Shown here in pieces: positions 4,225 through 63,352 of a stretch of DNA of 64,000 nucleotides; the stretch's first letter is position 1; every line of letters begins with the position of its first letter. The DNA is taken from positions 53,444,001-53,508,000 of the forward strand of contig NC_073383.1 in the NCBI RefSeq assembly GCF_028641065.1, written 5' to 3'. Source of the DNA: Leucoraja erinacea (taxonomy: Eukaryota). A program made the translations under genes and the position numbers. The notes below the pieces were generated by a model. That model was given only the letters and a program-made list of their open reading frames with translations, searched no databases and was not told the origin of the DNA.

Positions 4225-4435
4225 AAAGAACTGCAGATGCTGTTTTACATACAGAAGGCACAAAGTGCCAGAGTAACTCAGTAGGTCAGACAGCGTTTCT
4301 AGAGAACATGGGTAGGCAACAATTCTGGTTGAGACCTTTCTTCAGAGACTGAAGGGGCCCAACTTGAAATGTCACCTATCAATGTTCTCCAGAGATGATG
4401 CTTGACCCGCTGAGGTACCCCAGGGCTTTATGTAT
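4225..4435. mobile_element. Penelope terminal-repeat (pLTR)-derived short element, head-to-head inverted pair
   Basis: Minus arm aagaactgcagatgctg...ctttcttcaga is joined to plus arm ctgaagggg...gaaatgtcacctatc...ctgaggtacccc. Both are similar to 49277-49369. Confidence 0.8.
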
Positions 4436-4479
4436 TTATCTGAAAAACTAAGATCCTTTACCAACTTGCTCTCCTGAAG

Positions 4480-4640
4480 AACAGCACCTATTACTTGCCA
4501 CACTTTATCTGGCCTCTCCCCTTTGCCTGCTTTCTTCTCCCCTCCTATATTCAGTGTAAAGAAGGGTCTAACCTATCACCTATCCATGTTCTCCAGAGAT
4601 GCTTCCTGACCTGCTGAGTTACTCCAGGACTTTATGTTCT
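4480..4640 (+). mobile_element. Degenerate Penelope pLTR-derived element
   Basis: gaagggtct...ccagagatgcttcctgacctgctgagttactccag family motif. Confidence 0.7.
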
Positions 4641-4845: not shown

Positions 4846-5377
4846 GTTCGACTACCATGTTTCCTAGATTATACTTGATTATTTCAACATATATTTTGGG
4901 ACAATGAAAGGATGTGAAATGCAAATGCAAATCTTAATTATTCCTTTAAGTGCACAGGACTTACCAGTTTAAACTAATTAACCTGGTGCATATCTGCATT
5001 AGGATTACATTTATGATAAGAGTATATATCGGATTTTGGATACGTTAAATAATTTTGATTTTATGCCCTTGTGTAGTGACTCTTTGTCCCAGTTCACTTT
5101 GTTCTGCAGATATCTGGCAATGCATCTGTCCTGTGTGTCACTGGAGCATTCCCAAGGCAGGCAATGCCATGGCTGTAGTCCCCAACCACGGAACAACGAA
5201 GCAAAGTAGTTAACCTCTATAACCTTTACATGTTGTATAGAGGCATTATGTGGTAACTGCCATTACAAAACAGTCAGAGTCACGAGCTGCAAACATTCTT
5301 CACGTAGATTTTAAAGCAATGTACTGACAATTATATACAATTAACCCTAATGATGCTGTTGCATGCCAAAAGAAATT

Positions 5378-5451
5378 TATCGACCCAAAACATTCCTTCT
5401 ATCTAGAGATGCTGCCTATACTGCTGAGTTACTCCAGCATTTTGTGTCTAT
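5378..5451 (+). mobile_element. Penelope pLTR-derived fragment
   Basis: tcgacccaaaac...gagatgctgcc...ctgagttactccagcattttgtgtctat. Confidence 0.75.
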
Positions 5452-6025
5452 CCCAAATGATGTATTACGGCCAAAACAAAGTATTCTACTTACCATACTA
5501 TTCATCAGTGAAAATTAAGCGATTGTCAAATAATGCAAATAAGCATTAAACTTTACCTCAATATAAAAAACTTGTGTTCCTTAAAAGGAAGGGCGATGGT
5601 TTAAACAGCACACATTTGCAGATTTTAATTATTCCCTGAAGCAAAATATTTAAAACATGGTGCAAATTGTACAAGCAAATTGTAATTATGTTTGTACATA
5701 TTATGAATATATCTCGCATCTATTTAAAATTTGAAAATATATCCAAATATTCAACCACATAAGCAGGAAATGTTCTTTGTTGTTAAATATATTTGAAGTT
5801 TGTACTCTGTATGGTTAAACAATTGTGTTCTGATCATTGTTTCACATGTTAAGAAAACAATTGTAATAAATAGATTGAGTTGAGTTAAGTGCAGAGTTAA
5901 TATAGGATATTGGAAACCAGACAAAAACACCCAGAACACTCACATTTATTTTGGTGCAAGCAATCCTGTACAAGCATCTGTCATAAATTAATTAAATAGA
6001 AAAAATGGCTGTAGGAAAAGACTGT

Positions 6026-6145
6026 AGGAACTGCAGATGCAGATTACAAAAGAGGACACAATGTGCTCTCGTAACTCAACAGGTCAGGCAACATCTTTGG
6101 AGAACACAGATAGCTGACTTTTTGGATCTTATCCCTTCTTCAGAC
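6026..6145 (-). mobile_element. Penelope pLTR-derived element
   Basis: aggaactgcagatgc...gtaactcaacaggtcaggc...cccttcttcagac, the reverse complement of the family consensus. Confidence 0.75.
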
Positions 6146-7149
6146 CTGAGGGTCTCGAAGGGTCTTGAGCAGGCTCCCGAGTAAAAATGGCTTATTTTAT
6201 CAAATATTTCCAGTAGTCAGTTAACTGAACATACAGTATACCTGATCACCTATCTTTATTAATTCCCTACAATGAAACAACGACAATCCATAATTATTTC
6301 TCAGCTGCAGCCGTTCCTAATGATATGTATTCATTAATATTTGTGTGCTGCAGAACACTTCTGGCACTATCGTCCCAGAAGGTTCATGTACCATCTTCTT
6401 ACACAATGCATGTTACTGTATAATCCAAACCATTAAGCAGGTAAGAGATAGAATATGCATGAGATGTACAGAGACCTCTCTCCTGTTTGTATCTGAAGAT
6501 TTATAGTGATACATATTAAAAGAGAAAGAACAGAATTGTATACACTATCTAAATGGGGACAGAAAAAAAAATCATAAATAAATAAAAGTTCCAATTGAAA
6601 CAATTATCATGCCACAAAGGCTGAAAGGCAGTCACCAAAAGAAATACAGACAACCAGATTCAATAGAACCAGGAATTAGAATGCACAATTAAAGCGTGCC
6701 TGTTCGCTGAAATTCATGCAACTCTGTGTGGCCTGCTAATTATAATGATTGCAGCATTCAGGCAGCACTAATCATTCTTTTCATTGTCTTGACACTTTAG
6801 CAGTGAGACAAATTATAAGTGGCTTCACCCTCTTAAATGGAAAATGCATTGTGGATGCAGCAAGTACTGTCAGGCACATTACAAATTACGATAATTTGGG
6901 AAACGATGAAGAAAGGCACAACATGAGAAAGTGCGTGTTCCAAGGTTCAAATTCTGCACTGATCTGGCTGGAGGAGTTGAAAAGGAAGGCTTATGTGACT
7001 GCAGAGAACTCTAATGCCCTCCATTACAAAAGCAGAAGGAAGTGGAAATAGTGAACTTTGGGTCAATGTCAGGAGTAAAACTCCAAAGATCCTGATACCA
7101 TGACAAAAAAAAATCAAAGTGTGGACAGTGAAGCCATCATTAAACACCA

Positions 7150-8622
7150 TATCTACCAAATACACTGTGAGCCTGAGTCATCCCAACAGGCCTTTCAGGT
7201 GAGCCAGGGGNNNNNNNNNNNNNNNNNNNNNNNNNNNNNNNNNNNNNNNNNNNNNNNNNNNNNNNNNNNNNNNNNNNNNNNNNNNNNNNNNNNNNNNNNN
7301 NNNNNNNNNNNNNNNNNNNNNNNNNNNNNNNNNNNNNNNNNNNNNNNNNNNNNNNNNNNNNNNNNNNNNNNNNNNNNNNNNNNCAAAAACTCCATTCAGG
7401 CTGATGNNNNNNNNNNNNNNNNNNNNNNNNNNNNNNNNNNNNNNNNNNNNNNNNNNNNNNNNNNNNNNNNNNNNNNNNNNNNNNNNNNNNNNNNNNNNNN
7501 NNNNNNNNNNNNNNNNNNNNNNNNNNNNNNNNNNNNNNNNNNNNNNNNNNNNNNNNNNNNNNNNNNNNNNNNNNNNNNNNNNNNNNNNNNNNNNNNNNNN
7601 NNNNNNNNNNNNNNNNNNNNNNNNNNNNNNNNNNNNNNNNNNNNNNNNNNNNNNNNNNNNNNNNNNNNNNNNNNNNNNNNNNNNNNNNNNNNNNNNNNNN
7701 NNNNNNCATCTACCGAGACTCACTGGCCATGAGTCACTGAACAGGACTCCATCCATGTGCATTCAGGTGAGCCAGGGGTTCATGTGCATTTCTCCAATCC
7801 TTGTCTAGTGCATTCAGTGCTGCCAATATGGCCTCCTTTAGTGTGATCAAGCATAGACTAGGTGACCACTTCACTGAACTCTTGAGCTCCATCCACCAAG
7901 GCATGCCTGATCTCCCAGTTGCTAATCATTTTAACTGCCTTTCCCTTTCCCATACCAACTGTTCTGTCCTTGGCCTCCTTCATTGCCAGAATGAGGCCAC
8001 ACATGAACTGGAGGAACAGCACCTCATATTCCACGTGGGATGCTTACAACCCAACAACATGAATATTTAATTATCTAATTTCAATTAATAATCCCCCTAT
8101 CCTCCACCCTTTCCCATCCCCTGTCACCCCCCATCCCTGGTGCAAACCATTTTCTCCCACCATCTCCCACCTCGCCATTCACCCTGCTCCTTTCCTCTCC
8201 TTCATACATTCATCTCTGATCCCCTCGTCCCCAATATCTTTTTTATCTCCTCTCTTTTCCCTACACACTAAGCCTTACACCCGTATTCCTCCATTGGCTT
8301 TACATTTCAGTCCTCTTCTCTCCTCATCTGACACCCATTTGTCTCCTTTTCACCTCTAGCCTTTGCTGCTACTTACTCTACCCATGTGCCGTTCAAACCC
8401 CCTCACCTGCATCCACCTGTCACATGCCAAGCTTTGTCATACCTCCCATTCCAGCATTCTCCCTACTACTACTGAAGAAGTCACAACTCAAAATGTTGTC
8501 AATACATTGCCTCTGTAGATGGTGCCTGACATACTGAGTTGAATCTGAATCTGAATCTGGAGTTCCTCCAGCACTTGGTTTTTTGGCTCAAGGTTCCAGT
8601 GTCTGCAATTTCTTTTGTTTCC
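7150..8622 (+). mobile_element. Degenerate Penelope-like element (GIY-YIG remnant + pLTR) spanning two N gaps
   Basis: ORF 7801-8070 contains KHRLGDHFTELL...PVANHFN...SVLGLLHCQNEATHELEEQHLIF, homologous to 48666-49136. A pyrimidine-rich tract and a decayed ctgaagaag tail follow at about 8472. Confidence 0.85.
7211..7706. other. Assembly gaps (7211-7383, 7407-7706)
   Basis: Runs of N. Confidence 1.
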
Positions 8623-9981: not shown

Positions 9982-11396
9982 TAGAGCACTGATGTGGGAT
10001 GAATTATTTTACAAGCAGGGACGGTTGTTAGGAAGACAAGTATGTGCACAATATTCTTCCACAAATAACAATGAAGTGGACAATGAGATAAACCATGCGT
10101 AGCAACATTAGTTGAGGGATTGTGTAAATGTAATGTAATTATGTGAAGCACAGAAGATTAAGTATTAAATCTGGTGTCATATGATGGTGTGACATGATGG
10201 AAAGGAACTTGGGTTCCCTGACACTCCAAGTTACCGTTGGCCAGTTTACTGCTGTGCAAATGCATTCCCTTCACAATACAGGTAAGAAAATTCCTGTCAT
10301 ACCTCTAAGACAGCATGACAGCAATATGTTGCCTTCAGTGGGACAATGAAAATATCTTGTAAATGGATACATACAGGCAGCACCCAGCAATTTAACAGCT
10401 ATAAAAACCAACAATTAAAAATAAATGAGGGAAAAGTGCTGAATCCAAGAATATATGATCTAATTCAATGACACCCACAACTGCTGTATAGCCAATTTGG
10501 CTACCTGTGCTCCAATTTTAAATGGTCTGCTTGATCCAGCAGTCATTTGTGTGGTTGAATCAGACATGCCACTGAGCCTCCAGAGGTGTATTTTACCCAC
10601 GGCACCTCAGGTAGAGCCATATCCAAGGTATTCTGCAGCAATGCCACTAATGTTTGCTCCAACTCGAGGAGCAGAATATGGTACAAATACTGATCAGTGA
10701 ATTAATCTTTTCTAAAGAGCTCTACACTTCTAATTAAGAATACAAGAAGAAATCTCATTCCATAACACCTTTAACTTTTTATGTGTCTTACATATCAATG
10801 ACATCGCTCAGTGTCTGTGACAGTCATGTTTCCTATCACTTCTACTGCAACATCAAAGCTTATAAATAATGGTGCTGAATAATTAACATTGATGAAACAA
10901 TGTAGCACAAAGAATAATCTGTCATTAATTATTAAGGACACAGTAATATCACAGGTAGGCAAAAATGCTGGAGGAACTCAGCGGGTGAGGCAGCTTTAAT
11001 GGAGCGAAGGAATACGCAACGTTTCAGGTCAAGACCCTTCTTCAAATTAATGTGGGGGGGGGCGGGAAAATGAAAGGAAGAGGCGGAGTCAGTAGGCTGT
11101 GGGAGACCTGGGAAGGGGAGGGGTGTAATGAGTGTAGTCGTACACGTGTCAAAACACAACACATATTTATTAAAGTCCACTTACAGCATTGGTCTACAGG
11201 ACGTTACAGTACCTAACAGCTACTCAGACTGCCTTACGTAAGCAAGCTCTTGATAATATAAATTGAATCTAGGCGGAGCCACTGCTAACAAGCACTACAA
11301 TTGGTTAATAGGAAATAACCAATCTACATCTTTCCTTGTAGAAACAAAATAAAGCATAGATACGTGGAAACATGGTGCCTAAATAATATAGTGGCT

Positions 11397-12835: not shown

Positions 12836-12996
12836 ATAGACTATAGGTGCAGCAGTAGGCCATTCGGCCCTTCAAGCCAGCACCACCACTCAATGTGATC
12901 ATGGCTGATCATCCCCAATCAGTAACCCGTTCCTGCCTTCTCCCCATATCCCCTGACTCCGCTATTTTTAAGAGCTCTCTCTTGAAAGCATCTCTT
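12836..12996 (-). mobile_element. CR1 3'-tail fragment inserted in Penelope
   Basis: gtaggccattcggcccttc...tgccttctccccatatcc tail, with GACA duplication at 12832-12835 and 12997-13000. Confidence 0.8.
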
Positions 12997-14039
12997 GACA
13001 GAAAGGTCGAATTCCAAATGGGAGGGGGAGTTGAAGTGCTGAGACACTGGGAGATCAGGTTGGTTATTGCGAACTGAGCGGAGGTGTTGGGTGAAGCGAT
13101 CTCCAAGCCTGCGCTTGGTCTCACCGATGTAGAGCAGCTGACACCTGGAACAACGGATGCAATAGATGAGGTTAGAGGAGGTGCAAGTGAACCTCTGCCT
13201 TACCTGGAAAGACTGCTTGGGTCCTTGGATGAAGTTGAGGGGGGAGGTAAAGCGACAAGTGTAGCATTTCCTGCAGTTGCAAGGGAAAGTACCAGGGGAG
13301 GGGGTGGTTTTGGTGGGAAGGGACAAATTGACCAGGGAGTTACAGAGGGAACAGTCTCAGTGGAAATCTGAAAAAGATGTAGATGGGAAGATGTGGCCAG
13401 TGGTGGGATCTTGTTGGAGGTAGCGAAAATGTCGGAAGATTATCTGTTGTATATGACGACAGGTAGGGTGGAAGGTGAGGATAAGGGGGACTGTCCTTGT
13501 TGTGAGTGGGGGGATGGGGAGTGAGAGCGGAGCTACGGGATATTGAGGAGACCCTGGTGAGAGCCTTATCTATATCACAGGATCACCGCAAAGAAAGTAT
13601 CCATTTTATGCAGAATGTACACCCGATTGAGTGATGCCGAATTTACATTTCCTTTATTCGACTTGCAATATTTAATCATAATGATTTAAACTGAATTGTC
13701 TGCTCATAAAACAGCTGAGTTATCTTCTTTAAATAGCCTGTGATACAAAGAGTGGAACATTTGCTTCCCACACAGATGGTTGTGTCCTGGGGCTCTCTGT
13801 CACAAATTTCTCTACCCACAGCTTAAGAGTCTATTTTAGCTGCATGCAGTTAGTCACCTAGAAGGACTATATCACAATATCCAATTTCTGCACAATTTAG
13901 ATTATGATTGATCTGTCCTGAAAATATTTGTGTTCCACTTACACATGATCAAACTTAATTTTCTTTTGGTAGTGGCAAACTGTCATTGCTCTGTCTTTTG
14001 TGAAGCATGCATACATTTGTGCCTTGCAATGTTACATTG

Positions 14040-15573: not shown

Positions 15574-17167
15574 ACATTGTTTGGCTCATATATCTCCACA
15601 CATGATTGTGGGTGAACTTTTTAAGATGACATTCAAAGGAAATTTGCCCCAGAACAAATGTTGTATTCTTTCACCCCAGCAGTAAGCCTCGATTATCCAA
15701 GTACTACCTTGACTGGTTTTCATTTCCCATCATTCCCGCATCAATAGCTGTTTGCCCATCACCCTACCCCATCAACAAAGTCCACACTGACTTCCCAACT
15801 CCAATTGTTCAATACAGGGAGACCCTGCAATGAACATTGAAATGTTTCACCAGTTCATCTTTATGCACTCACATCATTTCGCTGGCTGTAGCTTCTTTAT
15901 TCTTTTCAACCTTGTCAAAGCATTGTTAGCAATTGTAGCAGAGCCAGGCAATTGGTATACTCTCTTGAATGCTCTTTTGATACATTTTATGATTTCATCT
16001 TCTTCGCACTGCATTTAAACATTGCAATCTAACTGAAAGCTTCCTTTCCAAGATCAGCATCTATTGTGCATGAATCTAATTACCAAATGTCCCGTTTAAA
16101 GTTTAGATATAATTATCATTGCTTCAGTATTGAGGCTCCAAGAGAAACAGTCACAGACATTTGATTTAACATCTCGCATTTACTGAAAATCAGTCGGTTG
16201 TTTACAACCAATAACATTTTAATACCCCTTGTTGATCTTATTTAATTCTCTGTTTCCCCATAACAATGGCTCTGTTTCCAAATGTGAAGCAATTTATTTT
16301 CTTCCATTTTCTCCAATAAACTTTCAAACATGCCCTGCCTCAGTTTCTTGTTTCTTTAGCATTTGCTTGAACCTTTTCTGTTGTTTCTGTCTGCTTCCGA
16401 ATGCAGTGCTGCTTTACTATATTTCATCCCTTTTCTCAACATGAGTTCTCCTCTGCCCATGGGTTGCATGGGTGGAAATCCCGGGGGGATATGGGGACAC
16501 GTCCCCCCCCCCCCATGTTTTGAGAGGTGGGAGACAATCTCCCCCCCCCCCCCCCCATGTTTTGGAAGCTGGATTTTAAAATTCCGTGAAAAAAAATCTA
16601 TGAAAAATCTCACCTTTCCGCGAGACAGTGAGATTGGGACTGATGATCGTGGGTGCCGAATGGACGAGAGAGACGTCGATCAGCAGGCAATGGGAGGGAG
16701 GGCGGGACATGATGATTCACTGTGATGGTTAGAGGAGGGAGGTGTCAGTCAGAGGCAGTGATTGGAGGAGGGAGATGTCCTGATGGAGCAAAGATCATAG
16801 AGAATTGGCCCATTCACGGGACCTTTCATCGCCCGGCGCGGCGTAAAATCAGCCACAGGATTTTCCATCAACCCGCAGTCAAATTGTTGCATCGAGACGA
16901 TCGAGGCACCCGATGTTGAAGCCCCCACCGGGCGATGGAAGATCCCGCAGCCGGTTTTAAGCCGCGCCAGGTGATGAAAGGCCTCGGGAACGGGCCAATT
17001 GAAGTCCCATGATTTAGGGCGGACGAAGCTGCTGTTGCTGGAGTTCGGAGTCGGTCACCAACCAGGTCAGCTCTCGATGTTACCGTCCACAGGGCCCATG
17101 GCCGAAGCCACCGGAGCCTCGCCTGTGTGCGTGTTTGTGCATTCATGCGCGTGCAGCCACCAAGTAA

Positions 17168-20027
17168 CCATATAACCATATAACAATTACAGCACGGAAA
17201 CAGGCCATCTCGGCCCTACAAGTCCATGCCGAACAATTTTTTTTTTTTTTTTTTCCCCCTTAGTCCCACCTACCTGCACTCGTACCATAACCCTCCATTC
17301 CCTTCTCATCCATATGCCTATCCAATTTATTTTTAAATGATACCAATGAACCTGCCTCCACCACTTCCACTGGGAGCTCATTCCACACCGCCACCACTCT
17401 CTGCGTAAAGAAGTTCCCCCTCATATTACCCCTAAACTTCTGTCTCTTAATTCTGAAGTCATGTCCTCTTGTTTGAATCTTCCCTATTCTCAAAGGGAAA
17501 AGCTTGTCCACATCAACTCTGTCTATCCCTCTCATCATTTTAAAGACCTCTATCAGGTCCCCCCTTAACCTTCTGCGCTCCAGAGAATAAAGACCCAACT
17601 TATTCAACCTATCTCTGTAACTTAGTTGTTGAAACCCAGGAAACATTCTAGTAAATCTCCTCTGTACTCTCTCTATTTTGTTGACATCCTTCCTATAATT
17701 TGGCGACCAAAATTGTACACCATACTCCAGATTTGGTCTCACCAATGCCTTGTACAATTTTAACATTACATCCCAGCTTCTATACTCAATGCTCTGATTT
17801 ATAAAGGCTAGCATACCAAAAGCTTTCTTTACCACCCTATCTATATGAGATTCCACCTTCAAGGAACTATGCACGGTTATACCCAGATCCCTCTGTTCAA
17901 CTGTATTCTTCAATTCCCTACCATTTACCATGTACGTCCTATTTTGATTTGTCCTGCCAAGGTGTAGCACCTCACATTTATCAGCATTAAACTCCATCTG
18001 CCATCTTTCAGCCCATTTTTCCAAATGGCCTAAATCACTCTGTAGACTTTGGAAATCCTCTTCATTATCCACAACACCCCCTATCTTGGTATCATCTGCA
18101 TACTTACTAATCCAATTTACCACACCTTCATCCAGATCATTGATGTACATGACAAACAACAAAGGACCCAACACAGATCCCTGAGGCACCCCACTAGTCA
18201 CCTGCCTCCAACCCGATAAACAGCCATCCACCATTACCCTCTGGCTTCTCCCATTCAGCCACTGTTGAATCCATCTTGCTATTCCTGCATTTATACCCAA
18301 CAGTTGAACCTTCTTAACCAACCTTCCATGAGGAACCTTGTCAAAGGCCTTACTAAAGTCCATATAGACAACATCCACTGCTTTACCCTCGTCAATTTCC
18401 CTAGTAACCTCTTCAAAAAATTCAAGAAGATTAGTCAAACATGACCTTCCAGGCACAAATCCATGTTGACTGTTCCTAATCAGACCTGTTTATCTAGATG
18501 CTTATATATATTGTCTCTAAGTATCTTTTCCATTAATTTGCCCACCACTGAAGTCAAACTAACAGGTCTATAATTGCTAGGTTTACTCTTAGAACCCTTT
18601 TTTAAACAATGGAACAACATGCGCAGTACGCCAATCCTCGGGGACTATTCCCGTTTCTAATGACATTTGAAATATTTCTGTCATAGCCCCGGCTATTTCT
18701 ACACTAACGTCCCTCAATGTCTTAGGGAATATCCTGTCAGGACCTGGAGACTTATCCACTTTTATATTTTTCAAAAGTGTCAGTACTTCTTTTACTTCGA
18801 ACCTCATAGTATCCATAGCTACTCTACTAGTTTCCCTTACCTCACATAATTCAATATCCTTCTCCTTGGTGAATACCGAAGAAAAAAAATTGTTCAATAT
18901 CTCCCCCATCTCTTTTGGCTCTGCAGATAGCTGTCCACTCTGTCTCTCCAATGGACCAATTTTATCCCTCCTTATCCTTTTGCTATTAATATAGCTGTAG
19001 AAACCCTTTGGATTGACTTTCACCTTACTTGCCAAAGCAACCTCATATCTTCTTTTAGCTTTTCTAATTTCTTTCTTAAGATTCTTTTTACATTCCTTAT
19101 ACTCCTCAAGCACCTCATTTACTTCATGCTGCCTATAATTATTGTAGATCTCCCTCTTTTTCCGAACAAGATGTCCAATTTCCCTTGAAAACCAGGGCTC
19201 TTTCCAATTTTACTGTTTCCTTTCAACCGAACAGGAACATAAAGATTCTGTACTCTTAAAATTTCCCCTTTAAATGTCCTCCATTTCTCTTCTACATCTT
19301 TTCCATAAAGCAAAATGTCCCAGTTCACTCCTTTTAAATCATCTCGCATCGCATCAAAGTTAGCCTTTCTCCAATCAAAAATCTCAACCCTAGGTCCAGT
19401 TCTGACCCTCTCCATAGTTATATTGAAACTAATGGTATTGTGATCACTGGACCCGAAGTGCTCCCCAACGCATACCTCCGCCACCTGTCCAGTCTCATTT
19501 CCTAACAGGAGGTCCAGCACTGCCCCTCCTCTAGTAGGTACCTCTATGTATTGCTGCAAAAAACTATCCTGCACACATTTTACAAACTCCAACCCATCCA
19601 GCCCATTTACAGAATGTGTTTCCCAGTCTATGTGTGGAAAGTTGAAATCTCCCACAATCACTACCTTGTGCTTACTACTAATCTCTGCTATCTCCTTACA
19701 TATTTGCTCTTCCAATTCTCGTTCCCCGTTTGGCGGTCTATAATACACCCCTATAAGTGTTGCTACACCTTTCCCACTTCTCAATTCCACCCAAATAGCC
19801 TCCCTAGATGAGCCCTCCAATCTATCCTGCCAAAGCACTGCTGTAATATCTTCCCTGACTAGCAATGCAACACCTCCACCTCTTGCCCCTCCAATTCTAT
19901 CACACCTGAAGCAACGAAATCCTGGAATATTTAGTTTCCAATCACAGCCCTCCTGCAACCACGTTTCACTGATCGCCACAACATCATACTTCCAGGTGTC
20001 TATCCAGACTCTAAGCTCTTGTAAGCT
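17168..20027 (-). mobile_element. Young CR1 LINE, 5'-truncated, near-complete ORF2
   Basis: (TTATATGG)n 3' tail. AAGTAA duplication at 17162-17167 and 20028-20033. Endonuclease and RT ORFs present. Confidence 0.96.
17260..20027 (-). pseudogene. CR1 ORF2 (APE endonuclease + RT), frameshifted into three ORFs
   Basis: 19119-20105 (ISETWL, VGDFNFP, SSDHN), 18589-19113 (KSPGPD, VPEDW) and 17260-18456 (DFSKAFDKV, GVPQGSVLGP, YADD). Confidence 0.95.
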
Positions 20028-20144
20028 AAGTAATTGTGTCTCCCCCCCAAGTTTTGATCGCGATTTCACAAAGTCACAATCAACCAAGCAATTAACGATG
20101 AACAATATCCGTTACCACCTTGCAAGATCTGTACGCAGATCTAA

Positions 20145-20461: not shown

Positions 20462-21753
20462 TAAGCATATGAGGTCAAGCACTACTACTGAGTGTACCAT
20501 AGATTAGATCAATTTTCGCATGCCATGGTTTACCGGAAGAACTTGTTTCTGATAACGGACTTCAGTTTCATTCAGAACGGTTCAAAGTTCATGCAACAAA
20601 ATGGTGTAAAACACACACTTGTTCCCCCATACCATCCAGCCTCCAATGGGGTGGCGGAAAGGTCTGTTCGAGTTGTCAAAGATGCTCTCAAAAAATAGGT
20701 TTTGCAGGGTAGTTCAAAGCTCAGCATGAAACATCATTGCTAGTTTCTTGCTGAAGTACAGAACCACACAACAACAGGTTACTCACCTGTAGAATTGTTG
20801 ATGAAGAGAAGGCTAAGAATACGCCTAAGTCTAGTTCAACCCAACTTGGCCTTGAGAGTTGAGCAAAAACAGCTAAGTCAAAAATGCCATTTTGACTCTC
20901 ACAAAAAGGAAAGGTACTTCAAGCCAGATGAGCAGGTTCATGTTCTCAGTCCTCCCAACAAGTCCAGTCGAGACAAATGGGATGTTGGGAGAATAGCGGA
21001 AGTGTGCGAACAAAAAGATATTTAGTTGAAGTTAGAGATAGGATTAAAAGTGTTCATGTTGATCATGTTGATCAAATGATTCCAAAATCTGAGCATGAAG
21101 TCTTAATCCCTGAGTTTTTATCTGAAAGTGAGTTGGAAGAAACCATTGTGATTGAAACACAAAGTTCAGTTAGTACAGACAAAGAAACAGATTCCTCTGG
21201 TCAAGTCTGAAGAAAGGTTTCGGCCCAAAACGTTACCTATTTCCTTCGCTCCATAGATGCTGCTGCACCCGCTGAGTTTCTCCAGCATTTTTGTGTACCT
21301 TCCTTTGGTCAAAGTCAGGGTACTAAAACAAGCCAAACAAGTCTTCAGTTGAGTCAACACCTAAACCTGTTACACCTGTTACTGTTAGGCAATCAGGCAG
21401 GATCCGTAAACCAGTAGTCAAGCTAGGTTTGTAAGTTAAATACATCACTGCACAAGTAAAACAAAAATATATAGATATGTAAATTAAATATATTATGTTA
21501 TAATTTAGAATTTCATGAATACTGGTTTAAATTGATTATCACAACAACAAAATTGTAACTGAGTACTTAGATTTAATACTTAAAAAAAGGAGAGCGGCGT
21601 AATGTATTCATACATATTCATGTATATGTTAATGAATTGGTGTTCAATATAAGATGGGAATGTTGGGCAATAAATCTCTCTCTCGTGATCCAGGCAACCA
21701 GCGTGTGAGTTGTTATTTATTCTGCCGTCCGGAAAATAACAGATCCCATCACA
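20462..21753 (+). mobile_element. Gypsy LTR retrotransposon 3' fragment: integrase remnant, PPT and short 3' LTR
   Basis: GLPEELVSDNG and HTLVPPYHPASNGVAERSV integrase motifs. PPT at 21582-21597. LTR at about 21598-21753 (cgtaatg...catcaca) with AATAAA at about 21669. Confidence 0.88.
21205..21299 (+). mobile_element. 95-bp Penelope pLTR/hammerhead-only insertion
   Basis: Near-identical to 49275-49369. Flanked by a 13-bp duplication, ttcct(c/t)tggtcaa. Confidence 0.9.
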
Positions 21754-21988
21754 GGACCTTAATGCTGAATCTTTTCCTATTGTCTACACAACCAGGCCAA
21801 AACAATTTGATTTTTTGATTTTGTCCTTTATCGCATATGATTTGTTTCCCTTTCTTCAGACTCTTCTCACCTGTCACCATGCCATCTTTCATTTCTTCCT
21901 TCATGGATACTCAAGTCTCCCAAATCCCCAATCTCGCTCCATTGAGCTTGAATAGAAATGTTTGGCACTGAATGATGCCATTTGGCCC

Positions 21989-23091
21989 ATTAGCAAGATG
22001 GATTCAACAGTGGCTGAATGGGAGAAGCCAGAGGGTAATGGTGGATGGCTGTTTGTCGGGTTGGAGGCAGGTGACTAGTGGGGTGCCTCAGGGATCTGTG
22101 TTGGGTCCTTTGTTGTTTGTCATGTACATCAATGATCTTGATGAAGGGGTGGTAAATTGGATTAGTAAGTATGCAGATGATACCAAGATAGGGGGTGTTG
22201 TGGATAATGAAGAGGATTTCCAAAGTCTACAGAGTGATTTAGGCCATTTGGAAAAATGGGCTGAAAGACGGCAGATGAAGTTTAATGCTGATAAATGTGA
22301 GGTGCTACACCTTAGCAGGACAAATCAAAATAGGACATACATGGTAAATGGTAGGGAATTGAAGAATACAGTTGAACAGAGGGATCTGAGAATAACCGTG
22401 CATAGTTCCTTGAAGGTGGAATCTCATATAGATAGGGTGGTAAAGAAAGCTTTTGGTATGCTAGCCTTTATAAATCAGAGCATTGAGTATAGAAGCTGGG
22501 ATGTAATGTTAAAATTGTACAAGGCATTGGTGAGACCAAAGCTGGAGTATGGTGTACAATTTTGGTCGCCCAATTATAGGAAGGATGTCAACAAAATAGA
22601 GAGAGTACAGAGGAGATTTACTACAATGTTGCCTGGGTTTCAACAACTAAGTTACAGAGATAGGTTGAAGAAGTTAGGTCTTTATTCTCTGGAGTGCAGA
22701 ATGTTAAGGGGGGGACTTGATAGAGGTCTTTAAAATGATGAGAGGGATAGACAGAGTTGATGTGGACAAGCTTTTCCTTTGAGAATAGGGAAGATTCAAA
22801 CAAGAGGACATGACTTCAGAATTAAGGGACAGAAGTTTAGGGGTAACATGAGGGGGAACTTCTTTACTCAGAGAGTGGTAGCGGTGTGGAATGAGCTTCC
22901 AGTGGAAGTGGTGTCGGCAGGTTCATTGGTATCATTTAAAAATAAATTGGATAGGCATATGGATGAGAAGGGAATGGAGGGTTATGGTACGAGTGCAGGC
23001 AGGTGGGACTAAGGGAAAAAAGTTGTTCGGCATGGACTTGTAGGGCCGAGATGGCCTGTTTCCGTGCTGTAATTGTTATATGGTTATATGG
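21989..23091 (+). mobile_element. Young CR1 LINE 3' fragment (same subfamily as 17168-20027)
   Basis: ORFs 21972-22733 and 22779-23012 are nearly identical to 17260-18456. TTATATGG tail. Possible TGGCCC duplication. Confidence 0.95.
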
Positions 23092-23544: not shown

Positions 23545-23865
23545 CCTGATGCAAGACCTCAGTCCAAAACATGACCTATATCATATGCCTCCACAGTTGC
23601 AACTCGACCCACTGAGTTTGTTCCAGATTCCCGCATTGTGGACTCTTTTATGTTGGTAGGAACTGTAGATGCTTGTCTAAACCAAAGATAGACACAAAAA
23701 GCTGGAGTAACACAGGGGGTCAGACAGCATTGCTGGAGTAGAGGAAAAGGTAATGTTTCGGATCGAGACTCGTCTGTCTCAACCTGAAATGGCACCTATT
23801 CTTTTTCTCCAGAGATGCTGTCTGACCAGCTGAGTTATTCCAGCTTTTTGTGTCTATCTTGTGGT
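23545..23865. mobile_element. Penelope pLTR-derived copies (old plus copy at 23545-23630; inverted pair at 23658-23865)
   Basis: aggaactgtagatgc...gtttcggatcgagac is joined to tctcaacctgaaatggc...ctgagttattccagc. Confidence 0.8.
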
Positions 23866-30732: not shown

Positions 30733-30964
30733 TGTAATACTTATTATCACTGGTTTAACTTTATTCCGCAGTTCTCAGCCAAAAGATACTCAATTCATGT
30801 CCTTAAAAGGTCACCAACAGAGTCAAGTTGATGTCATCAGCTCTAGGGTTCAAAATTGTCACTTCCATCCAAGGCCTTGGGTGGCCTTTTGGCATCAGGT
30901 CAACATCTTATGTTAGTTTATCCATCATGCTTATCATTATTTACCTCCTGCAGATCATTCACAT

Positions 30965-31062
30965 AGAAACAGGAAACTACAGATGTTGGAATCTTGAGAA
31001 CAACAGTGTTGGAAGAACTCGGTGAGCCAGGCAGTATTCGAGGAGGGAATTTCCTCCACAGA
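30965..31062 (-). mobile_element. Penelope pLTR-derived fragment
   Basis: ggaaactacagatgttgg...tgttggaagaactcggtgagccaggcag. Confidence 0.55.
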
Positions 31063-37435: not shown

Positions 37436-37618
37436 GAATCAAAGAACTACAGATGCTTGTTTACAAAAAAAGACACAAAGTGCTAGATTAACTTAGCAAG
37501 TCAGGTAGCATTCTCGGAACAGAAGCTGATTTACAAAAAAAAAAGCGAAAGTGCTGATGTAACAGTGGTACACAAAAAAGGCACAAAGTGCTGGAGTAAC
37601 TTACAAAATAAGACACAA
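37436..37618 (-). mobile_element. Reiterated Penelope pLTR end fragments (4 copies)
   Basis: acaaaaaa-gacacaaagtgct-gagtaact is repeated four times, with a 17-bp flanking duplication. Confidence 0.8.
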
Positions 37619-41849: not shown

Positions 41850-42025
41850 GTGGAACTGCAGATGCTGGTTCACACCGAAGATAGACACAAAATGTTGGAG
41901 TAACTCAGTGGGACAGGCAGCATGTCTGGATAGAAGGACTGAGTGACTTTTCGGGTTGACGCCCTTCTTCAGACCCTTCTCGACCCGAAACATCGTCCAT
42001 TCCTTCTATACAAAGGTACTGCCTG
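41850..42025. mobile_element. Penelope pLTR-derived inverted pair with 17-bp TSD
   Basis: tcactgattagtttagt at 41833-41849 and 42026-42042. The arms join at cttcttcagac/ccttctcgacccgaaac. Confidence 0.88.
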
Positions 42026-44330: not shown

Positions 44331-45386
44331 ATAATGTGGGAGGCAAGATCAGTAAGTTTGTGAACAATTTAAAGATTGGTAGAGTTGTTGATGGTGTGGA
44401 AGATAATCTTTGACTGCAGGGCCGTATCGATGTTTTGGTTGAAATGGTCTGGAAAATCGCAGATTTAATCCAGACAACGTGAGATTATGCATTTTGAAAG
44501 CACTAATAAGGCTAGGACATACATTGTGAATGGTAGGGAGTACTGAGGAACAGATGGACTTTGGAGTACAGATCCACAGATTTTTGGCAACCCAAGTAGA
44601 TAAAGTGGTTAGGAAGGCATATGTAAATCTGGCCTTCATTAGGCATTGAGTACAGAAGTAAGGAGGTAATGCTCTAAATTTATAAAACTTTGATCAGATC
44701 TCAGCTGGAGAACTGCGTGATGTTCTGGTTACCAAGGTATGAGAAAGATGAGTCTGAAGAATGGTCCTGACCCAAAAGGTCACCTATCCATTTTCTTGAG
44801 TGATGCAGCCTGACCCACTGAGTTACTCCAGCAGTTTGTGTCTTTTTTGTGTAAACAAGCATCTGCAGTTTCTTGTTTCTACACAAGAAAACATGTTATG
44901 GAGCTGAAATAGGGGAGGAGGAGAGGGGGGGGTAGGGCAGAAGAAATTTACCAGGATATTGCCTGGACTGTAGTTAAAATGAGATACTGGTAAAAACAGA
45001 TCTTTGCTCCCTGAAATGGAGGAGGTTAAAATGGGACTTAACTGAAGTATAGAAAAATATGAGGGGTACATATAATTTAGACTGTAGGAAACCTTTCTCG
45101 CTATCAGAGGTATGGAAAAAGTAGAGGACAAAGGTTTAAAAAAAGGGGAAGAGATTCAGAAGCTATACAAGGGGAACGATCGGCATCAAGAGTGGTATGT
45201 ACCTGGAATGCATTGTCTGAGAGAGTATTTGAATCTGTTGTTGAAGACAGTATTTAAGCAGTGTTGAGATGAGCACTTGAATTGTCTAGGCATAGGAATT
45301 AGTCCTAGGCAATGGGATTAATAGAGAAGAGTGCCTACTCGTCAGTATGGATGAATTGGGCTGAATGGCCTGGTTTCCATGTAGTA
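44331..45386 (+). mobile_element. Old CR1 RT fragment interrupted by a pLTR element and a DNA transposon
   Basis: ISKFVNNLKIG...FNPDNVRLCIL...DKVVRKAYVNL homology. The tail continues at 46361. Confidence 0.75.
44751..44885 (+). mobile_element. Penelope pLTR/hammerhead-derived insertion
   Basis: gtCTGAAGAatggtcctgaccc-aaaa-ggtc...gcatctgcagtttc. Imperfect agaaa(g/ac)atg duplication. Confidence 0.82.
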
Positions 45387-47702: not shown

Positions 47703-47819
47703 CATTATAGACTCAAAATGTTGCATTAACACAGCCAGATAGGCAGCATCACTGGATAGAAGGAATGGGTGATGTTTCGCGTCGAGACCCTTCTTCCGAT
47801 CCTTGTGCAGTTCCTTCCC
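47703..47819 (-). mobile_element. Penelope pLTR-derived element with 11-bp TSD
   Basis: gtttcgcgtcgagacccttcttcc core, with acactgatgtt on both sides. Confidence 0.75.
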
Positions 47820-48665
47820 ACACTGATGTTGGTTAGCTTGTTCTGCAAATGAATTTGGATGAGTTTATGGAAACATGTCTGATATAGTTAGTCCATGCTT
47901 CGGAGCTATACAAGGGGGTAAGATTACTGATGCCCATTATTGTGCTGGGTCTGAGGCCTCCAAAATCGCATATTTGCAAGTGAAGGGCACCACCTCCCAT
48001 ATTTTCCACCCATCTATCCTATCGTACACCATCTGTAACCCTGCATCAGTGCCCTTTTATTGTCCCACATTGTTCCCATAGTTACTTTGAAGAGTGAAGT
48101 GGAAGCTAGTTATCCTCAACCACGAGGGAACACCTGAGAGGAAGGCATAATTATCTGGTGCGTATAAAACAAAAAGTGTTTCAGTAAATGACAGAAATAC
48201 GTCTCTGGCAGAGTGAAAGGTTAGTGAAGGGAGTTACTGGCATAAACAAGCACAATGTAAAGCTTTTCCTGAGATCAAAGCTGAGATGGCAGATTGTCTG
48301 TGTGCTGTTAGTCAGATCAGTTCAGAAACAAAGCATCAAAGAAGAATCAATGTCAGAAGACTCATCAACAGAAACAGATACAACTTGTATTTACAGTGTA
48401 AAGTGTTCCAAGGAAATGTTAACAAATAGAATTTGGCAATCATAAAAGATTTATGTGCATCACTCCCAATCTTGGCTGCCCTAAGCTGCCTTGCATGCCA
48501 ATCCCAGTGAAAGCTTTAGGTCTGTGTGTTGTGAGGTAGCTGATGTGTGACCTTCAACTCTGGCAAAGTTAGGGCTGTGGGTTCATAGCTTGGGACCTAA
48601 TGTGGTCATAAACAAGTTTCACACAACGTGACCCCACCACTCGCCACATCTTCCCATCTCCCCCT

Positions 48666-49136
48666 ATGTCTGCCTTCCGCAAAGACCTCTCCCTCCGCAA
48701 CTCCCTTGTCAATTCTTCCCTTCCCTCCCGTACCACCCCCTCCCCGGGCACTTTCCATTGCAACCACAAGAAATGCAACACCTGTCCCTTCACCTCCCCC
48801 CTCAACTCCATTCAAGGACCCAAGCAGTCGTTCCAGGTGCAACAAAGGTTCACCTGTATCTCCTCCAACCTCATCTACTGCATCCGCTGCTCTAGATGTC
48901 AGCTGATTTACATCGGGGAGACTAAGCGAAGGTTGGGCGATCGTTTCGCCGAACACCTCCGCTCAGTCCGCAATAACCTACCTGAACTCCCGGTGGCTCA
49001 ACACTTCAACTCCCCCTCCCATTCCCAATCCGACCTCTCTGTCCTGGGTCTCCTCCATTGCCAGAGTGAGCAACACCGGAAATTGGAGGAACAGCACCTC
49101 ATATTCCGCCTGGGTTGTTTGCGTCCGGTGGCATGA
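48666..49136 (+). CDS. Penelope GIY-YIG endonuclease domain with Cys-rich linker (5'-truncated ORF fragment)
   Basis: GTFHCNHKKCNTC...NLIYCIRCSRCQLIYIGETKRRLGDRFAEH...RKLEEQHLI. The RT part is absent, so it is unlikely to be functional. Confidence 0.75.
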   Translation: MSAFRKDLSLRNSLVNSSLPSRTTPSPGTFHCNHKKCNTCPFTSPLNSIQGPKQSFQVQQRFTCISSNLIYCIRCSRCQLIYIGETKRRLGDRFAEHLRSVRNNLPELPVAQHFNSPSHSQSDLSVLGLLHCQSEQHRKLEEQHLIFRLGCLRPVA

Positions 49137-49269
49137 ACGTTGAATTCTCCCAGTTTTGCTAGCCCTTGCTGTCTCCTCCCCTTCCTTAACCCTCGAGCTG
49201 TCTCCTCCCATCCCCTCGCACTCGAGCTCCTCCTCCTCCCTTTTTCCTTCCATCTCCCCCCCCACCCCC

Positions 49270-49312
49270 CATCAGCCTGAAGAAGGGTTTCGGCCCGAAA
49301 CGTCGCCTATTT
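49270..49312 (+). ncRNA. Minimal type-I hammerhead ribozyme motif (predicted)
   Basis: CUGAAGA at 49277-49283, extra A, stem II GGGU-UUCG-GCCC, GAAA at 49297-49300, palindromic ACGU, GUC triplet ending at 49304. Helix I is short (GC/GC). Confidence 0.7.
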
Positions 49313-49719
49313 CCTTCGCTCCATAGATGCTGCTGCATCCGCTGAGTTTCTCCAGCATTTTTGTGTACCTTCACGCAATACTTCATGTGCTCTCAATGAA
49401 TGCACTCAAGACTCTCCATGCCAACCTAATGATCCTTGTCTACCTTGCAGCGGGATAACTATATGTTGGTATTGCTATTATAAATTGTTTTACATGTGCT
49501 ATGGGAGAATGGTCTTTCCCTCTAGCAGACAAACAGGGCAACTCTTCTGTAGTTTTTGTAATTGGATGCTAGGTTTCTCTAGCAGAATGGCATCATGATT
49601 GGTTTAATGAGAATGATCAGAGGTTACAGGAGTTAGCTAATAACAACCACAAAGTCTTCTCATTGACAGCATCCAAACTTTTCGTTGCCACCAGTTGTCA
49701 CAAAAATTCACAGAGACAT

Positions 49720-56161: not shown

Positions 56162-57120
56162 GATGTAGAAACAAGGAACTGCATGTGGTGACCTTTAGAT
56201 AAAGCACAAAGTGCTGGAGCAACTCAGCGGGTCAGGTAGCACCTTTGGAGAACATGGATAAGTGCCTTTTCAGGCCGGGACTCCTATTCTGAATGTGCAG
56301 GAGTGGGTGGGGTGGGGTGGGAAATCCCTCACCTATATCTTGCTGGGCTTTGTCCTACCGCTCCTCACTTCCAGCTTTCTTTCCCGCTACACCACAATTA
56401 GGATGAAGAAGGACCCAACTCAAAACGTCACCAAGCCATGTTCTCCAGAGATGCTGCCAGACCTGCTCAGTTACTCCAGCATTTTGTATAGCAATGTAGA
56501 AACAACAAACAGCAAATGCTGGTTTACAAAAAAGGTCATGAAGTGCTGGAGTAACTCAAAGAAGGCAGAATCGGGAACACAGGATGTAGTAGATAAGGTT
56601 AGGGGAGGTGCACGTGAACCTCGGTCTCACTGCAAAGGCATGCTGCGGTCCCTTGATGGATGTGAGGGAGGAGGTTTAGGGACAGGTGTCACACTTCCCA
56701 TGGTTGCAGGGGAAAGTATCTGGGGGGGGGGGGGGGGGAAGGTTTGGATATTTATTAAATAAATATAAGGAGTTGTGTGAAGGGAGTGGTCAGAAAGGGG
56801 TGGGATGGGATGATGTAACTAGATGATGTAGGATCACAGTGGAGGTGGCAGAAATGTCAGAGAATGGTGTGTTAGATGTGATGGTTAATTGGGAGACTGG
56901 TGAAGACCAGGGAATGCTCATTCTCCACGTGGAGCAGGGAGGTGGAAGAGGGGGGGGTGGGGTCATGGGGGTCATGAGAGCAGAAGTGCGGGACACAGAG
57001 GGGATGTGGGTGAGGGATCAATCTATGACGACAGGGGGGGAATCTATGTTTCCTAAAGAAAGAGGGCATGTCAGATATCTTAGTATGGAAAGCCTAAACT
57101 TGGGAGCAGATGCGGAGAAG
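56162..57120. mobile_element. Rearranged Penelope element: inverted pLTR copies plus minus-strand ORF remnant
   Basis: pLTR minus at 56162-56292, plus at about 56330-56490, minus at 56493-56558. This is followed by GIY-YIG/linker/RT remnant homologous to 13140-13575. Confidence 0.8.
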
Positions 57121-57528: not shown

Positions 57529-57643
57529 GTGTATGAAAGAACTGCAGATGCTGGCTTAAATCAAAGACAGACAAAACATCATCCATTCGCTCTCTCCAGA
57601 GATGCTGCCTGTCCCGCTGAGTTACTCCTGCATTTTGTGTCTA
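57529..57643. mobile_element. Penelope pLTR-derived inverted fragment with 14-bp TSD
   Basis: tcagtcctagaaat at 57515-57528 and 57644-57657. Confidence 0.85.
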
Positions 57644-59195: not shown

Positions 59196-59420
59196 AATAA
59201 CACAAAGCGCCGGAGTAATTCATTGTTTAAGAAGGAACTGCAGATGCTGGAAAATTGAAGGTAGACAAAAATGCTGGAGAAACTCAGAGGGTGAGGCAGC
59301 ATCTATGGAGCGAAGGAAATAGGCAACATTTCGGGTCGAGACCTTTCTTCAGATCAAAGGAGTAATTCATTGGGTCAGATGCATGGATAGGTGATGTTTG
59401 GGTTGGGACCCTTCTTCAGA
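59196..59420 (-). mobile_element. Two nested Penelope pLTR-derived copies
   Basis: Inner copy 59226-59358 is flanked by ggagtaattcattg (59212-59225, 59359-59372) inside an older copy. Confidence 0.88.
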
Positions 59421-62613: not shown

Positions 62614-63245
62614 AATACGATACAATACGATATGATGCGATAAACGTTATTCATCCACGGAGGGAAATTGGTCTGCCAACAGTCACAACACACAAGATAC
62701 ACAAAAACTTGAAATTAAAAGTGAAAACAAAAAGAAAAAGACAAACCACTGTTGGCTGGCTGCCATGTGCACAGCGCCTTCATCAGAACGAATGAACAAA
62801 CAAACAAGCACAGACTTATCCCCTAGGCAGAGGATTCTAAACTAGAGTGCCCACCCTCCCCTTCCTCCACACTCGTTCCCCTTTTGTTCTCCCACCGTCT
62901 CTCATGGCGGTTCCCCCACTCCGGGTCCCCATTTTCTTCCCCTCCCCCCACTGCCACCAAGGCTCCCGCTACTGTCAAGGCACCCGTTGCCACTGCCGAG
63001 TCTCCTCCTGCCGAGTCTACCACAGCCGAGTCTCCCACTGCTGCCGCCGAGGTTCCCATCACCGCCACCGCTGAGGCTTCATCAGCCCAAACAGGCCTTG
63101 CCACCCAGCTTCACCGCAGTCCCCTAGGAGACCTGTGGGGCGTTGGGCCTACCGGGGTGCATTCCAGTCTTCAGTCGTTGTTCTGGTCGTCGGTGCTGCG
63201 GTTGTTCGGCAGGTGGATCGGGCCCACCTAGCTCTCTGGGTGATG
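62614..63245 (-). mobile_element. Element with Rex/L2-type 3' tail ((ATCGT)n) and GC-rich non-coding body
   Basis: atacgatacaatacgat...ttattcatccacggagggaaattg terminus. CpG-rich body with 15-bp repeats at about 62990-63055. Confidence 0.5.
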
Positions 63246-63249
63246 TTTT

Positions 63250-63352
63250 GAGACGTCGAGACCCTGAGTCTGAGGATGGTTCTCACACCCATCCCTTCTC
63301 TCCAGAGATGCTGCGTGTCCCGCTCAGTTACTCCAGCATTTTGTGTCTATCT
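63250..63352 (+). mobile_element. Penelope pLTR-derived element
   Basis: gtctgaggatgg...ccagagatgctgcgtgtcccgctcagttactccagcattttgtgtctatc. Confidence 0.8.

What the first reader, a model, noticed from the sequence alone, without database searches (positions are those of the whole stretch)
21192..21312. ORF-less 95-200 bp hammerhead-bearing units inserted on their own with long TSDs: candidate non-autonomous ribozyme retroelement family
Seen: a 95-bp insert (21205-21299) inside a Gypsy integrase relic. It starts 2 nt before CTGAAGA, contains only the ribozyme core plus tail, and is flanked by a 13-bp duplication. About 20 related short copies occur in 64 kb (about 4225, 4555, 5378, 6026, 23545, 23658, 30965, 32215, 37436, 41850, 44751, 47703, 55640, 56162-56558, 57529, 59196, 59226, 63250), against about five ORF-bearing Penelope relics. 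Five others have clean duplications: 17 bp (37419/37619), 17 bp (41833/42026), 11 bp (47692/47820), 14 bp (57515/57644) and 14 bp (59212/59359). One boundary repeatedly falls at or within a few nt of the CTGAAGA core (6145, 21205, 41972, 44751, 59352, 59420). Inference: either a SINE/retrozyme-like parasite mobilised in trans by Penelope RT, or a strong structure-determined RT stop at the ribozyme fold. Either way the genome would be seeded with very many ribozyme-like motifs.
Basis: partly seen in the sequence, partly recalled or inferred. Interest (0 to 1): 0.75.

Follow-up and report, generated by a model that had tools for sequence, protein, structure and literature searches.

The report
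Penelope end stubs with fixed start
These short inserts are dead end-pieces of a known Penelope-type jumping gene, and the one unusual trait is that many begin at the same spot just before its small ribozyme motif, which likely marks where the copied RNA starts.

Summary
The 95-bp insert, its 13-bp duplication (12/13 match) and the five other duplications are real; 9 of 21 clusters have one, against 2.5% by chance. The units are not a separate family. The named insert is 95% identical to the end module of a GIY-YIG-bearing Penelope-like element (PLE) at 49277, and solo and ORF-linked copies interleave on a tree. Two 3' end classes (main end, tail), head-to-head inverted pairs and variable duplications are published PLE anatomy. 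Three of the five other inserts are inverted composites, one lacks the ribozyme, and the named copy's core is broken. One claim survives testing: 5' ends pile up 0-3 nt before CTGAAGA (10 of 17 pieces in the window; a loose-end peak there in 4 of 4 public runs), about 30 nt upstream of the predicted cut site. Best reading: the element's RT primes internally and runs off an RNA starting at an initiator-like TCAGT; this step is inferred. No tandem retrozyme arrays and no discrete RNA were seen. The scan noted the same pattern before on other genomes.

The parts
21205..21299 (+). Named solo insert: minimal hammerhead region (core broken) plus pLTR to the main 3' end; last letters may overlap the right duplication by microhomology
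   Evidence: (D17)
21192..21204 (+). Left target-site duplication (13 bp)
21300..21312 (+). Right target-site duplication (12/13 match)
48612..49136 (+). 5'-truncated PLE ORF end: CX4CxxC linker and GIY-YIG endonuclease
49137..49273 (+). Pyrimidine-rich UTR ending in an initiator-like / splice-acceptor-like CAG
49274..49372 (+). ORF-linked end module with full minimal hammerhead core (49277-49304; predicted cut 49304/49305); 95% identical to the named insert
59226..59358 (-). Simple solo insert with tail, 14-bp duplication, full core; nested inside another module copy (59195-59422)
41850..42025 (.). Inverted composite: minus-strand module with tail plus short plus-strand piece; 17-bp duplication
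47703..47819 (.). Inverted composite: minus-strand module to the main end plus 16-nt plus-strand tail end; 11-bp duplication
57529..57643 (.). Inverted composite: tail piece (-) plus main-end piece (+), no CTGAAGA box; 14-bp duplication
23650..23858 (.). Inverted composite joined in stem II region, tail at left end and main end at right; 14-bp duplication (1 mismatch)
37436..37618 (-). Three partial pieces without the ribozyme; 17-bp duplication
6011..6179 (-). Module with tail plus short inverted restarts at the core; 13-bp duplication (1 mismatch)
30964..31058 (-). Older-family piece with tail, no core; 13-bp exact duplication
44751..44883 (+). Solo module with tail starting 3 nt before the core; no clean duplication
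4225..4640 (.). Miniature PLE complex: inverted copy with tail, direct module, short UTR piece, second direct module
56165..56559 (.). Head-to-head pair, each piece with 35-75 nt of UTR, plus a third piece abutting an endonuclease relic
10945..11125 (-). Module with UTR; likely the 3' end of the GIY-YIG relic 12748-13422, split by later insertions
7849..8613 (+). Older PLE relic: endonuclease end, UTR, module with tail
63232..63352 (.). Inverted composite with restarts at the core, no clean duplication
5370..5454 (+). Solo piece, main end, weak 14-bp duplication with 2 mismatches
23546..23650 (+). Divergent older-family module with a short pyrimidine lead

Best explanation
The short units are end-module (pLTR) copies of endonuclease-bearing Penelope-like retroelements, and their shared 5' edge likely marks the start of the RNA that was copied. 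Shown: sequence identity with ORF-linked ends; 11-17 bp duplications; two 3' end classes about 30 nt apart; head-to-head pairs; 5' ends piled up 0-3 nt before CTGAAGA. Taken from published biochemistry of another PLE clade (Frangieh 2024): the protein cuts both target strands and starts reverse transcription inside the RNA at two adjacent sites, on uncleaved RNA. Inferred: (1) the element's mRNA starts at the initiator-like TCAGT right before the hammerhead; (2) priming at the 5' copy of the module leaves only 95-130 nt of template, so RT runs off the RNA end and gives a fixed-length cDNA, comparable to strong-stop DNA, that is integrated; (3) priming at the 3' copy gives the longer, variably truncated copies; (4) when both target ends are primed, two cDNAs are joined head to head, helped by palindromes in the hammerhead. 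The inserts are by-products that then decay.
For: Named unit 95% identical to ORF-linked 49277, support 99/95; label changes 6 against shuffled 6.1. ORF has GIY-YIG and a CX4CxxC linker; top 5 of 22 protein hits are from cartilaginous fishes. End rate per nt 0.185 at -3..0 against 0.006-0.007 inside and upstream; conservative P=3e-5 (positions read by hand). Loose ends at 49277 in 4 of 4 runs (448, 464, 878, 25), with heterogeneous A-rich flanks (agreement 0.35-0.39) ending AGT, not pyrimidine UTR. Raw-read depth on the module is 6.6x the ORF 3' end and 23x the UTR. None of the 24 loose-end rows shown is at the predicted cut site. In all 4 inverted inserts where both pieces reach a 3' end (4225, 23650, 47703, 57529) one is a tail end and one a main end. 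Published match: Craig 2021 (inverted copy, tail at one end); Arkhipova 2013 (8-10 bp TSDs, Inr-like TCACT in pLTR, palindromes at inverted junctions, solo pLTRs); Schostak 2008 (TSS in pLTR, internal promoter); median 128-bp de novo PLE insertions in Chlamydomonas.
Against: No transcript start was observed: the table of molecule starts was empty for the poly(A) run (fragmented library from a related species, about 6% read). The same YnCAG|T motif is equally a 3' splice acceptor, and in D. virilis the intron ends at helix I while the TSS is about 120 nt upstream. No full-length element or 5' pLTR was available to test that it starts at the same base. Only 24 of 2,244 loose-end rows and 15 of 236 joints were shown. 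Depth ratios can be inflated by subfamilies whose ORF is under 85% alike. Five solo pieces form a weak group (89/84, open) with no linked member in the window. Two-site priming was shown for a Poseidon element, not this clade. Only 1 of the 10 boundary ends (21205) is fixed directly by a clean duplication; 59352 has a clean one 6 nt upstream of the core, and the rest are read by homology, at inverted junctions or from degenerate duplications.
Confidence: 0.55

Rival explanations
1. Solo modules are self-propagating: they carry an internal promoter, are transcribed from the same start into flanking DNA, and are re-copied in trans; internal priming would regenerate the exact unit without needing a defined RNA 3' end. 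This would be a Pol II SINE-like parasite of Penelope. It can co-occur with the best explanation.
For: Module outnumbers ORF 6.6-fold in reads; fixed 5' end; weak solo-only group of five pieces, nearest linked copy 69-85%; pLTR cis sequences suffice for mobilisation in trans in Adineta; non-autonomous PLEs exist in Chlamydomonas.
Against: Named unit groups with an ORF-linked copy; label unclustered overall. Module reads are strand-balanced (51% +) and 92% of laid reads run on into unlike sequence, as for passengers in host transcripts. No tRNA or Rfam head. No covariation beyond shuffles.
Confidence: 0.2
2. RT copying the 3' pLTR is blocked where the module meets the pyrimidine tract (proteins bound at a 3' splice site, or the C-rich tract itself), or the end arises from splicing at that acceptor; the RNA continues upstream.
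For: Tract plus CAG sits exactly at the boundary in UTR-bearing copies; the D. virilis intron ends at helix I; PLE 5' UTR introns are conserved.
Against: A sequence or protein block would more likely give scattered stops than a 3-nt edge (inference). A spliced template should add a shared exon-1 sequence, but the loose flanks are heterogeneous; no GT..AG joint among the 15 of 236 shown, and none of those had RNA-read support. End rate inside the tract is background.
Confidence: 0.18
3. Ordinary continuous 5' truncation, with the apparent boundary produced by loss of homology in a fast-evolving low-complexity UTR.
For: 14 of 32 pieces end inside the module and 4 upstream in the UTR; ORF depth falls gradually, about 3-fold over 400 nt.
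Against: Flanks at the boundary are A-rich and unrelated, not diverged pyrimidine tracts; a clean duplication abuts the boundary at 21205 and lies 6 nt upstream of the core at 59358; about 30-fold rate excess.
Confidence: 0.04
4. Retrozyme-type cycle: hammerhead self-cleavage yields unit-length linear or circular RNAs that are reverse-transcribed.
For: A minimal hammerhead is present; animal retrozymes derive from pLTRs (Li 2026).
Against: Ends lie about 30 nt upstream of the cut site and include the core; no tandem arrays of the unit among 18 TRF rows; no circular permutation seen; hammerhead cleavage is dispensable for PAc insertion.
Confidence: 0.03

Closest known systems
5'-truncated insertions of canonical EN+ PLEs, Neptune/Nematis type (Craig 2021 PMC8557442; Arkhipova 2013 PMC3846280)
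   Same: pLTR with hammerhead, optional 30-40 bp tail at one end, adjacent inverted truncated copy, variable TSD, solo pLTRs, C-terminal GIY-YIG with CX2-5CxxC linker.
   Different: Here about a third of pieces (10 of 32) share one 5' base position; the passages read describe truncation as frequent but give no fixed point at the hammerhead. TSDs 11-17 bp against 8-10 bp in Adineta.
Minimal hammerheads of metazoan PLEs (Cervera and de la Pena 2014, PMC4209133)
   Same: Core boxes, extra base between 9 and 10.1, palindromic CG in place of helix III, thousands of single motifs 'probably related to truncated PLEs', opposite-strand pairs 100-700 bp apart.
   Different: Helix I is only 2 bp (D. virilis-like) and helix II about 4-5 bp; cartilaginous fish are not mentioned in the parts read.
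PAc Poseidon in vitro TPRT (Frangieh 2024, PMC11167929)
   Same: Two internal RT start sites that define main end and tail; both target strands extended; uncleaved RNA used; insertion into its own pLTR (59226 nested in another copy).
   Different: Different clade; 3' ends here follow a duplicated CCAGCAT motif rather than an AC-rich loop; the paper does not report fixed-length genomic stubs in the text read.
Non-LTR retrozymes (Cervera 2020 PMC7229834; Li 2026 bioRxiv 10.64898/2026.07.22.740005)
   Same: Non-coding, hammerhead-bearing, related to pLTRs, long TSDs.
   Different: Retrozymes are tandem arrays with canonical type I hammerheads and circular RNAs; these are dispersed single or inverted units with a minimal, mostly decayed core.
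SINEs
   Same: Short, non-coding, defined 5' end, variable TSD, very high density.
   Different: No tRNA/5S head found, no poly(A) or simple-repeat tail, and the entire unit is PLE sequence.

Membership tests
EN+ PLE insertion (Neptune/Nematis type) | C-terminal GIY-YIG endonuclease upstream of the module, same strand | tested here: met
   48612-49136, 7849-8052, 12748-13422
EN+ PLE insertion (Neptune/Nematis type) | CX2-5CxxC linker before the EN and two cysteines inside GIY-YIG | tested here: met
   translation; definition
EN+ PLE insertion (Neptune/Nematis type) | Optional 30-40 bp tail, two 3' end classes | tested here: met
EN+ PLE insertion (Neptune/Nematis type) | Head-to-head inverted truncated copy and variable TSD | tested here: met
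   (opposite-strand joints)
EN+ PLE insertion (Neptune/Nematis type) | RT phylogeny (Neptune versus Nematis) | not tested
   no RT domain linked to a module in the window; no genome held
Minimal hammerhead of PLEs | CUGANGA, stem II, GAAA, UH with extra base after A9 and palindromic 15.2/16.2 | tested here: met
   full core in 3 of 19 regions; palindromic CG in 49277; broken in the named copy
Minimal hammerhead of PLEs | Covariation of stem II | tested here: inconclusive
   74.5% paired, above slid controls (10-44%) but not above shuffles (270/500)
Minimal hammerhead of PLEs | Self-cleavage | not testable with these tools
   needs in vitro assay
Non-LTR retrozyme | Tandem array of two or more full units | tested here: not met
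   no module array in 18 rows
Non-LTR retrozyme | Canonical type I hammerhead, unit ends set by cleavage | tested here: not met
   (no Rfam hit); ends about 30 nt upstream of the cut
Non-LTR retrozyme | Abundant small circular RNA | not testable with these tools
   only a poly(A) raw-read run was available
SINE | Pol III head from tRNA/5S/7SL | tested here: not met
   degenerate heads can escape both tools, but the whole unit aligns to the PLE end
SINE | Defined 5' end | tested here: met
SINE | Own lineage, separate from autonomous copies | tested here: inconclusive
   not met for the named unit; open for one five-piece group; 22 rows from one window only

The most novel reading that the evidence does not exclude
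In cartilaginous fishes, Penelope-like elements integrate a fixed-length 'strong-stop-like' cDNA made by internal priming near the 5' end of their own mRNA, and some of these solo modules have become a self-propagating, Pol II-transcribed, hammerhead-headed SINE class that needs no defined RNA 3' end and outnumbers its autonomous partner several-fold.
Probability: 0.2. Interest if true: 0.7.

Novelty: new variant of a known kind. Interest (0 to 1): 0.38.

Why it matters
How PLEs build their pseudo-LTRs, tails and inversions is still unresolved. A fixed 5' edge shared by a large share of copies is a genomic record of a template end. It gives a direct test (CAGE, 5'-RACE, in vitro TPRT) of where the PLE RNA starts and of whether the hammerhead is cut before copying; the data here say the copied RNA was uncut. 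It also explains why such genomes hold so many isolated, mostly dead minimal hammerheads. The elements themselves are ordinary PLE debris.

Tried and rejected
No whole genome is held, so no genome-wide TSD-anchored histogram, tree or empty-site check was possible. Pattern scans of viral and metagenome contigs found 0 loci. Rfam: 0 hits at gathering score in the window; 1 unrelated sub-threshold hit at 49223-49378. No RNA holder was listed as on record; X15 is only guessed to be RNA. The poly(A) run showed no place where many molecules start or end, which says nothing about small or circular RNAs. Contig depths were not used as copy number. Stable-fold idea rejected: z -0.37 to -0.48 in 3 of 3 copies. 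Covariation not above shuffles for stem II or the downstream 6-bp helix. BLAST found no alignable homology among 8 UTR stretches, so UTR linkage was called by pyrimidine content and position. A search of 3 supplement files of PMC11167929 for 4 terms found nothing, and its Fig. S2 (genomic coverage of the template) could not be seen; it may already show a 5' boundary. bioRxiv supplements are closed. Look-ups of earlier findings by sequence and by place gave nothing. Nine paper searches listed no paper reporting a fixed 5' boundary at the hammerhead or a shark/skate PLE-SINE; the library lacks subscription papers and Repbase was not available, so this is not proof of absence.

Full report
OBSERVATION. 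The insert at 21205-21299 is present, starts 2 nt before CTGAAGA and lies between two 13-bp copies matching at 12 positions. The surrounding DNA has weak integrase similarity (rve_3 E=0.0011, rve E=0.12; 2 of 4 frames). A profile built from 10 window copies found 36 hits, 27 at E<0.001, against 1 weak hit in the reversed window. I grouped them into 21 clusters and scanned for flanking repeats: 9 of 21 score 9 or more against 2.5% of 400 random pseudo-inserts.

CORRECTIONS TO THE OBSERVATION. The named unit has no tail; it ends at the main 3' end. Of the other five inserts, three are head-to-head inverted composites and one is three fragments without the ribozyme. A full hammerhead core survives in 3 of 19 regions checked, and not in the named copy.

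WHAT IT IS. The module is the 3' end of a Penelope-like element. At 48612-49372 a GIY-YIG ORF end (Pfam E=1.2e-4) with a CX4CxxC linker is followed by a pyrimidine-rich UTR and the module on the same strand. The same order occurs at 7849-8613, and at 12748-10945 once an LTR-type insertion with a 5-bp duplication is allowed for. The linker marks the Neptune/Nematis type (Craig 2021, passages). The five best of 22 protein relatives are from cartilaginous fishes, so the host is likely one. The named insert is 95% identical to the ORF-linked module and pairs with it at 99/95 support. Across 22 pieces the solo/linked label needs 6 changes, as do shuffles (6.1); only 1 of 19 inner branches is strongly supported, and five solo pieces form a weak group without a linked member.

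PUBLISHED ANATOMY THAT MATCHES. Craig 2021 (passages): heavy 5' truncation, an adjacent inverted truncated copy, a 30-40 bp tail often at one end. Arkhipova 2013 (passages): 8-10 bp TSDs, palindromes at inverted junctions, an Inr-like motif in the pLTR, solo pLTRs. Cervera 2014 (parts 1-2 of 4): thousands of single minimal hammerheads related to truncated PLEs, pairs on opposite strands, and the D. virilis intron ending at helix I. Frangieh 2024 (parts 1-2 of 4): both target strands cut and extended, two internal RT start sites that define the tail, cleavage dispensable. The Chlamydomonas mutation study PMC9977147 (passages): de novo PLE insertions of median 128 bp. Schostak 2008 (passages): internal promoter and TSS in the pLTR. 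Li 2026 (parts 1-3 of 5) and Cervera 2020 (passages): retrozymes are tandem arrays. PMC8969392 and PMC6155905 (passages) added general context only. In the window, all 4 inverted inserts in which both pieces reach a 3' end have one tail end and one main end.

THE FEATURE THAT IS NOT ORDINARY. Of 32 pieces, 14 end within the first 95 nt of the module, 1 lies wholly in the tail and was left out of the rate, 10 end at -3..0 relative to the C of CTGAAGA, 4 end in the UTR and 3 run on. The end rate is 0.185 per nt at the boundary against 0.006-0.007 on either side; a conservative test gives P=3e-5 (positions were read by hand and mostly by homology). Laying four public runs on 48560-49430 at 85% likeness gave a loose-end peak before 49277 in 4 of 4 runs (448 and 464 contigs, 878 raw reads, 25 contigs), comparable to the 3' end peak at 49372 (356, 288, 1353, 28). 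The loose letters are heterogeneous and A-rich (agreement 0.35-0.39) and end in AGT, so these are true element ends 1-3 nt upstream of the core, not diverged UTRs. In raw reads the module is 6.6x deeper than the ORF 3' end and 23x deeper than the UTR, while depth along the ORF falls gradually. The best DNA run may be the source of the window; the raw-read run and one DNA run are from a related organism. Only 24 of 2,244 loose-end rows and 15 of 236 joints were shown.

MECHANISM. The boundary is about 30 nt upstream of the predicted cut (49304/49305) and keeps the whole core, so the template was uncleaved. A fold-induced stop would be expected at the downstream edge (inference), and the unit is not unusually structured. 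The simplest reading is a template end. UTR-bearing copies have a pyrimidine tract followed by TCAGT or a decayed form of it. This fits the initiator consensus with +1 at A (consensus recalled, not from a call) and equally a 3' splice acceptor. If the mRNA starts there, internal priming at its 5' module yields a 95-130 nt run-off cDNA, and priming at the 3' module yields the longer truncated copies. Short inverted restarts at the core in 6143, 41972 and 63250 look like RT re-priming at a template end (inference). A 7-bp inverted repeat inside the hammerhead (49287-49301) coincides with a fold-back loose end seen in 78 contigs at 49287 and offers a way to join two cDNAs. Both 3' end classes follow a duplicated CCAGCAT motif: 12-15 nt in 5 of 5 main ends, 12-26 nt in 8 of 9 tail ends, a candidate priming signal. 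None of these steps was shown experimentally here.

RNA. Module reads are strand-balanced (51% +) and 92% of laid reads continue into unlike sequence, as expected for passengers in host transcripts. No start or end pile-up was listed. A poly(A) library cannot exclude small or circular RNAs.

VERDICT. Real, abundant, and mostly known PLE anatomy; not a retrozyme; not shown to be an independent SINE. The fixed 5' edge is real in two organisms and was not found in nine paper searches, with the limits given under Tried and rejected. Four earlier unchecked notes of this scan describe the same pattern on other genomes; they are not independent support. My first stated odds already included a TSS/acceptor boundary at 20%; one search raised it.

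Noticed in passing
window 49348-49372, 59226-59280 and other copies: Both 3' end classes lie a similar distance past a duplicated CCAGCAT motif about 27-35 nt apart; either copy can pair with an upstream ATGCTG. Candidate signal for the two RT start sites.
   Followed up: partly
window 59195-59422: One module copy inserted into another module copy with a 14-bp duplication, as expected if the endonuclease can cut its own pLTR.
   Followed up: partly
window 11125-12690 (minus strand): An LTR-type insertion with TG...CA ends and a 5-bp duplication, itself containing an L2/CR1-like piece and an assembly gap, splits the UTR of a PLE relic.
   Followed up: partly
window 48620-49100: Poly(A) reads over the PLE ORF are strand-biased (60-74% first mate on +), which in common stranded libraries means RNA antisense to the ORF; module reads are balanced.
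   Followed up: no
window 49304: The cleavage-site base C17 reads T in about 60-73% of DNA contig depth and raw reads (88% in the small contig run); it sits in a CpG, so decay or a subfamily trait are both possible.
   Followed up: no
window 17119-20111, 21972-23091, 37855-39245: Young CR1-like LINE copies with long open frames, 91-99% identical to each other.
   Followed up: no
window 885-3083 (+) and 50592-52229 (-): Two L1/Tx1-like LINE relics about 72% identical, in opposite orientation.
   Followed up: no
window 8540-8565: A short GAATCT-type microsatellite has expanded inside an old module copy.
   Followed up: no
window 12832-12992, 43881-44041, 55461-55571, 60662-60802: A separate short interspersed repeat family, one copy inserted into a PLE endonuclease relic; not identified.
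   Followed up: no
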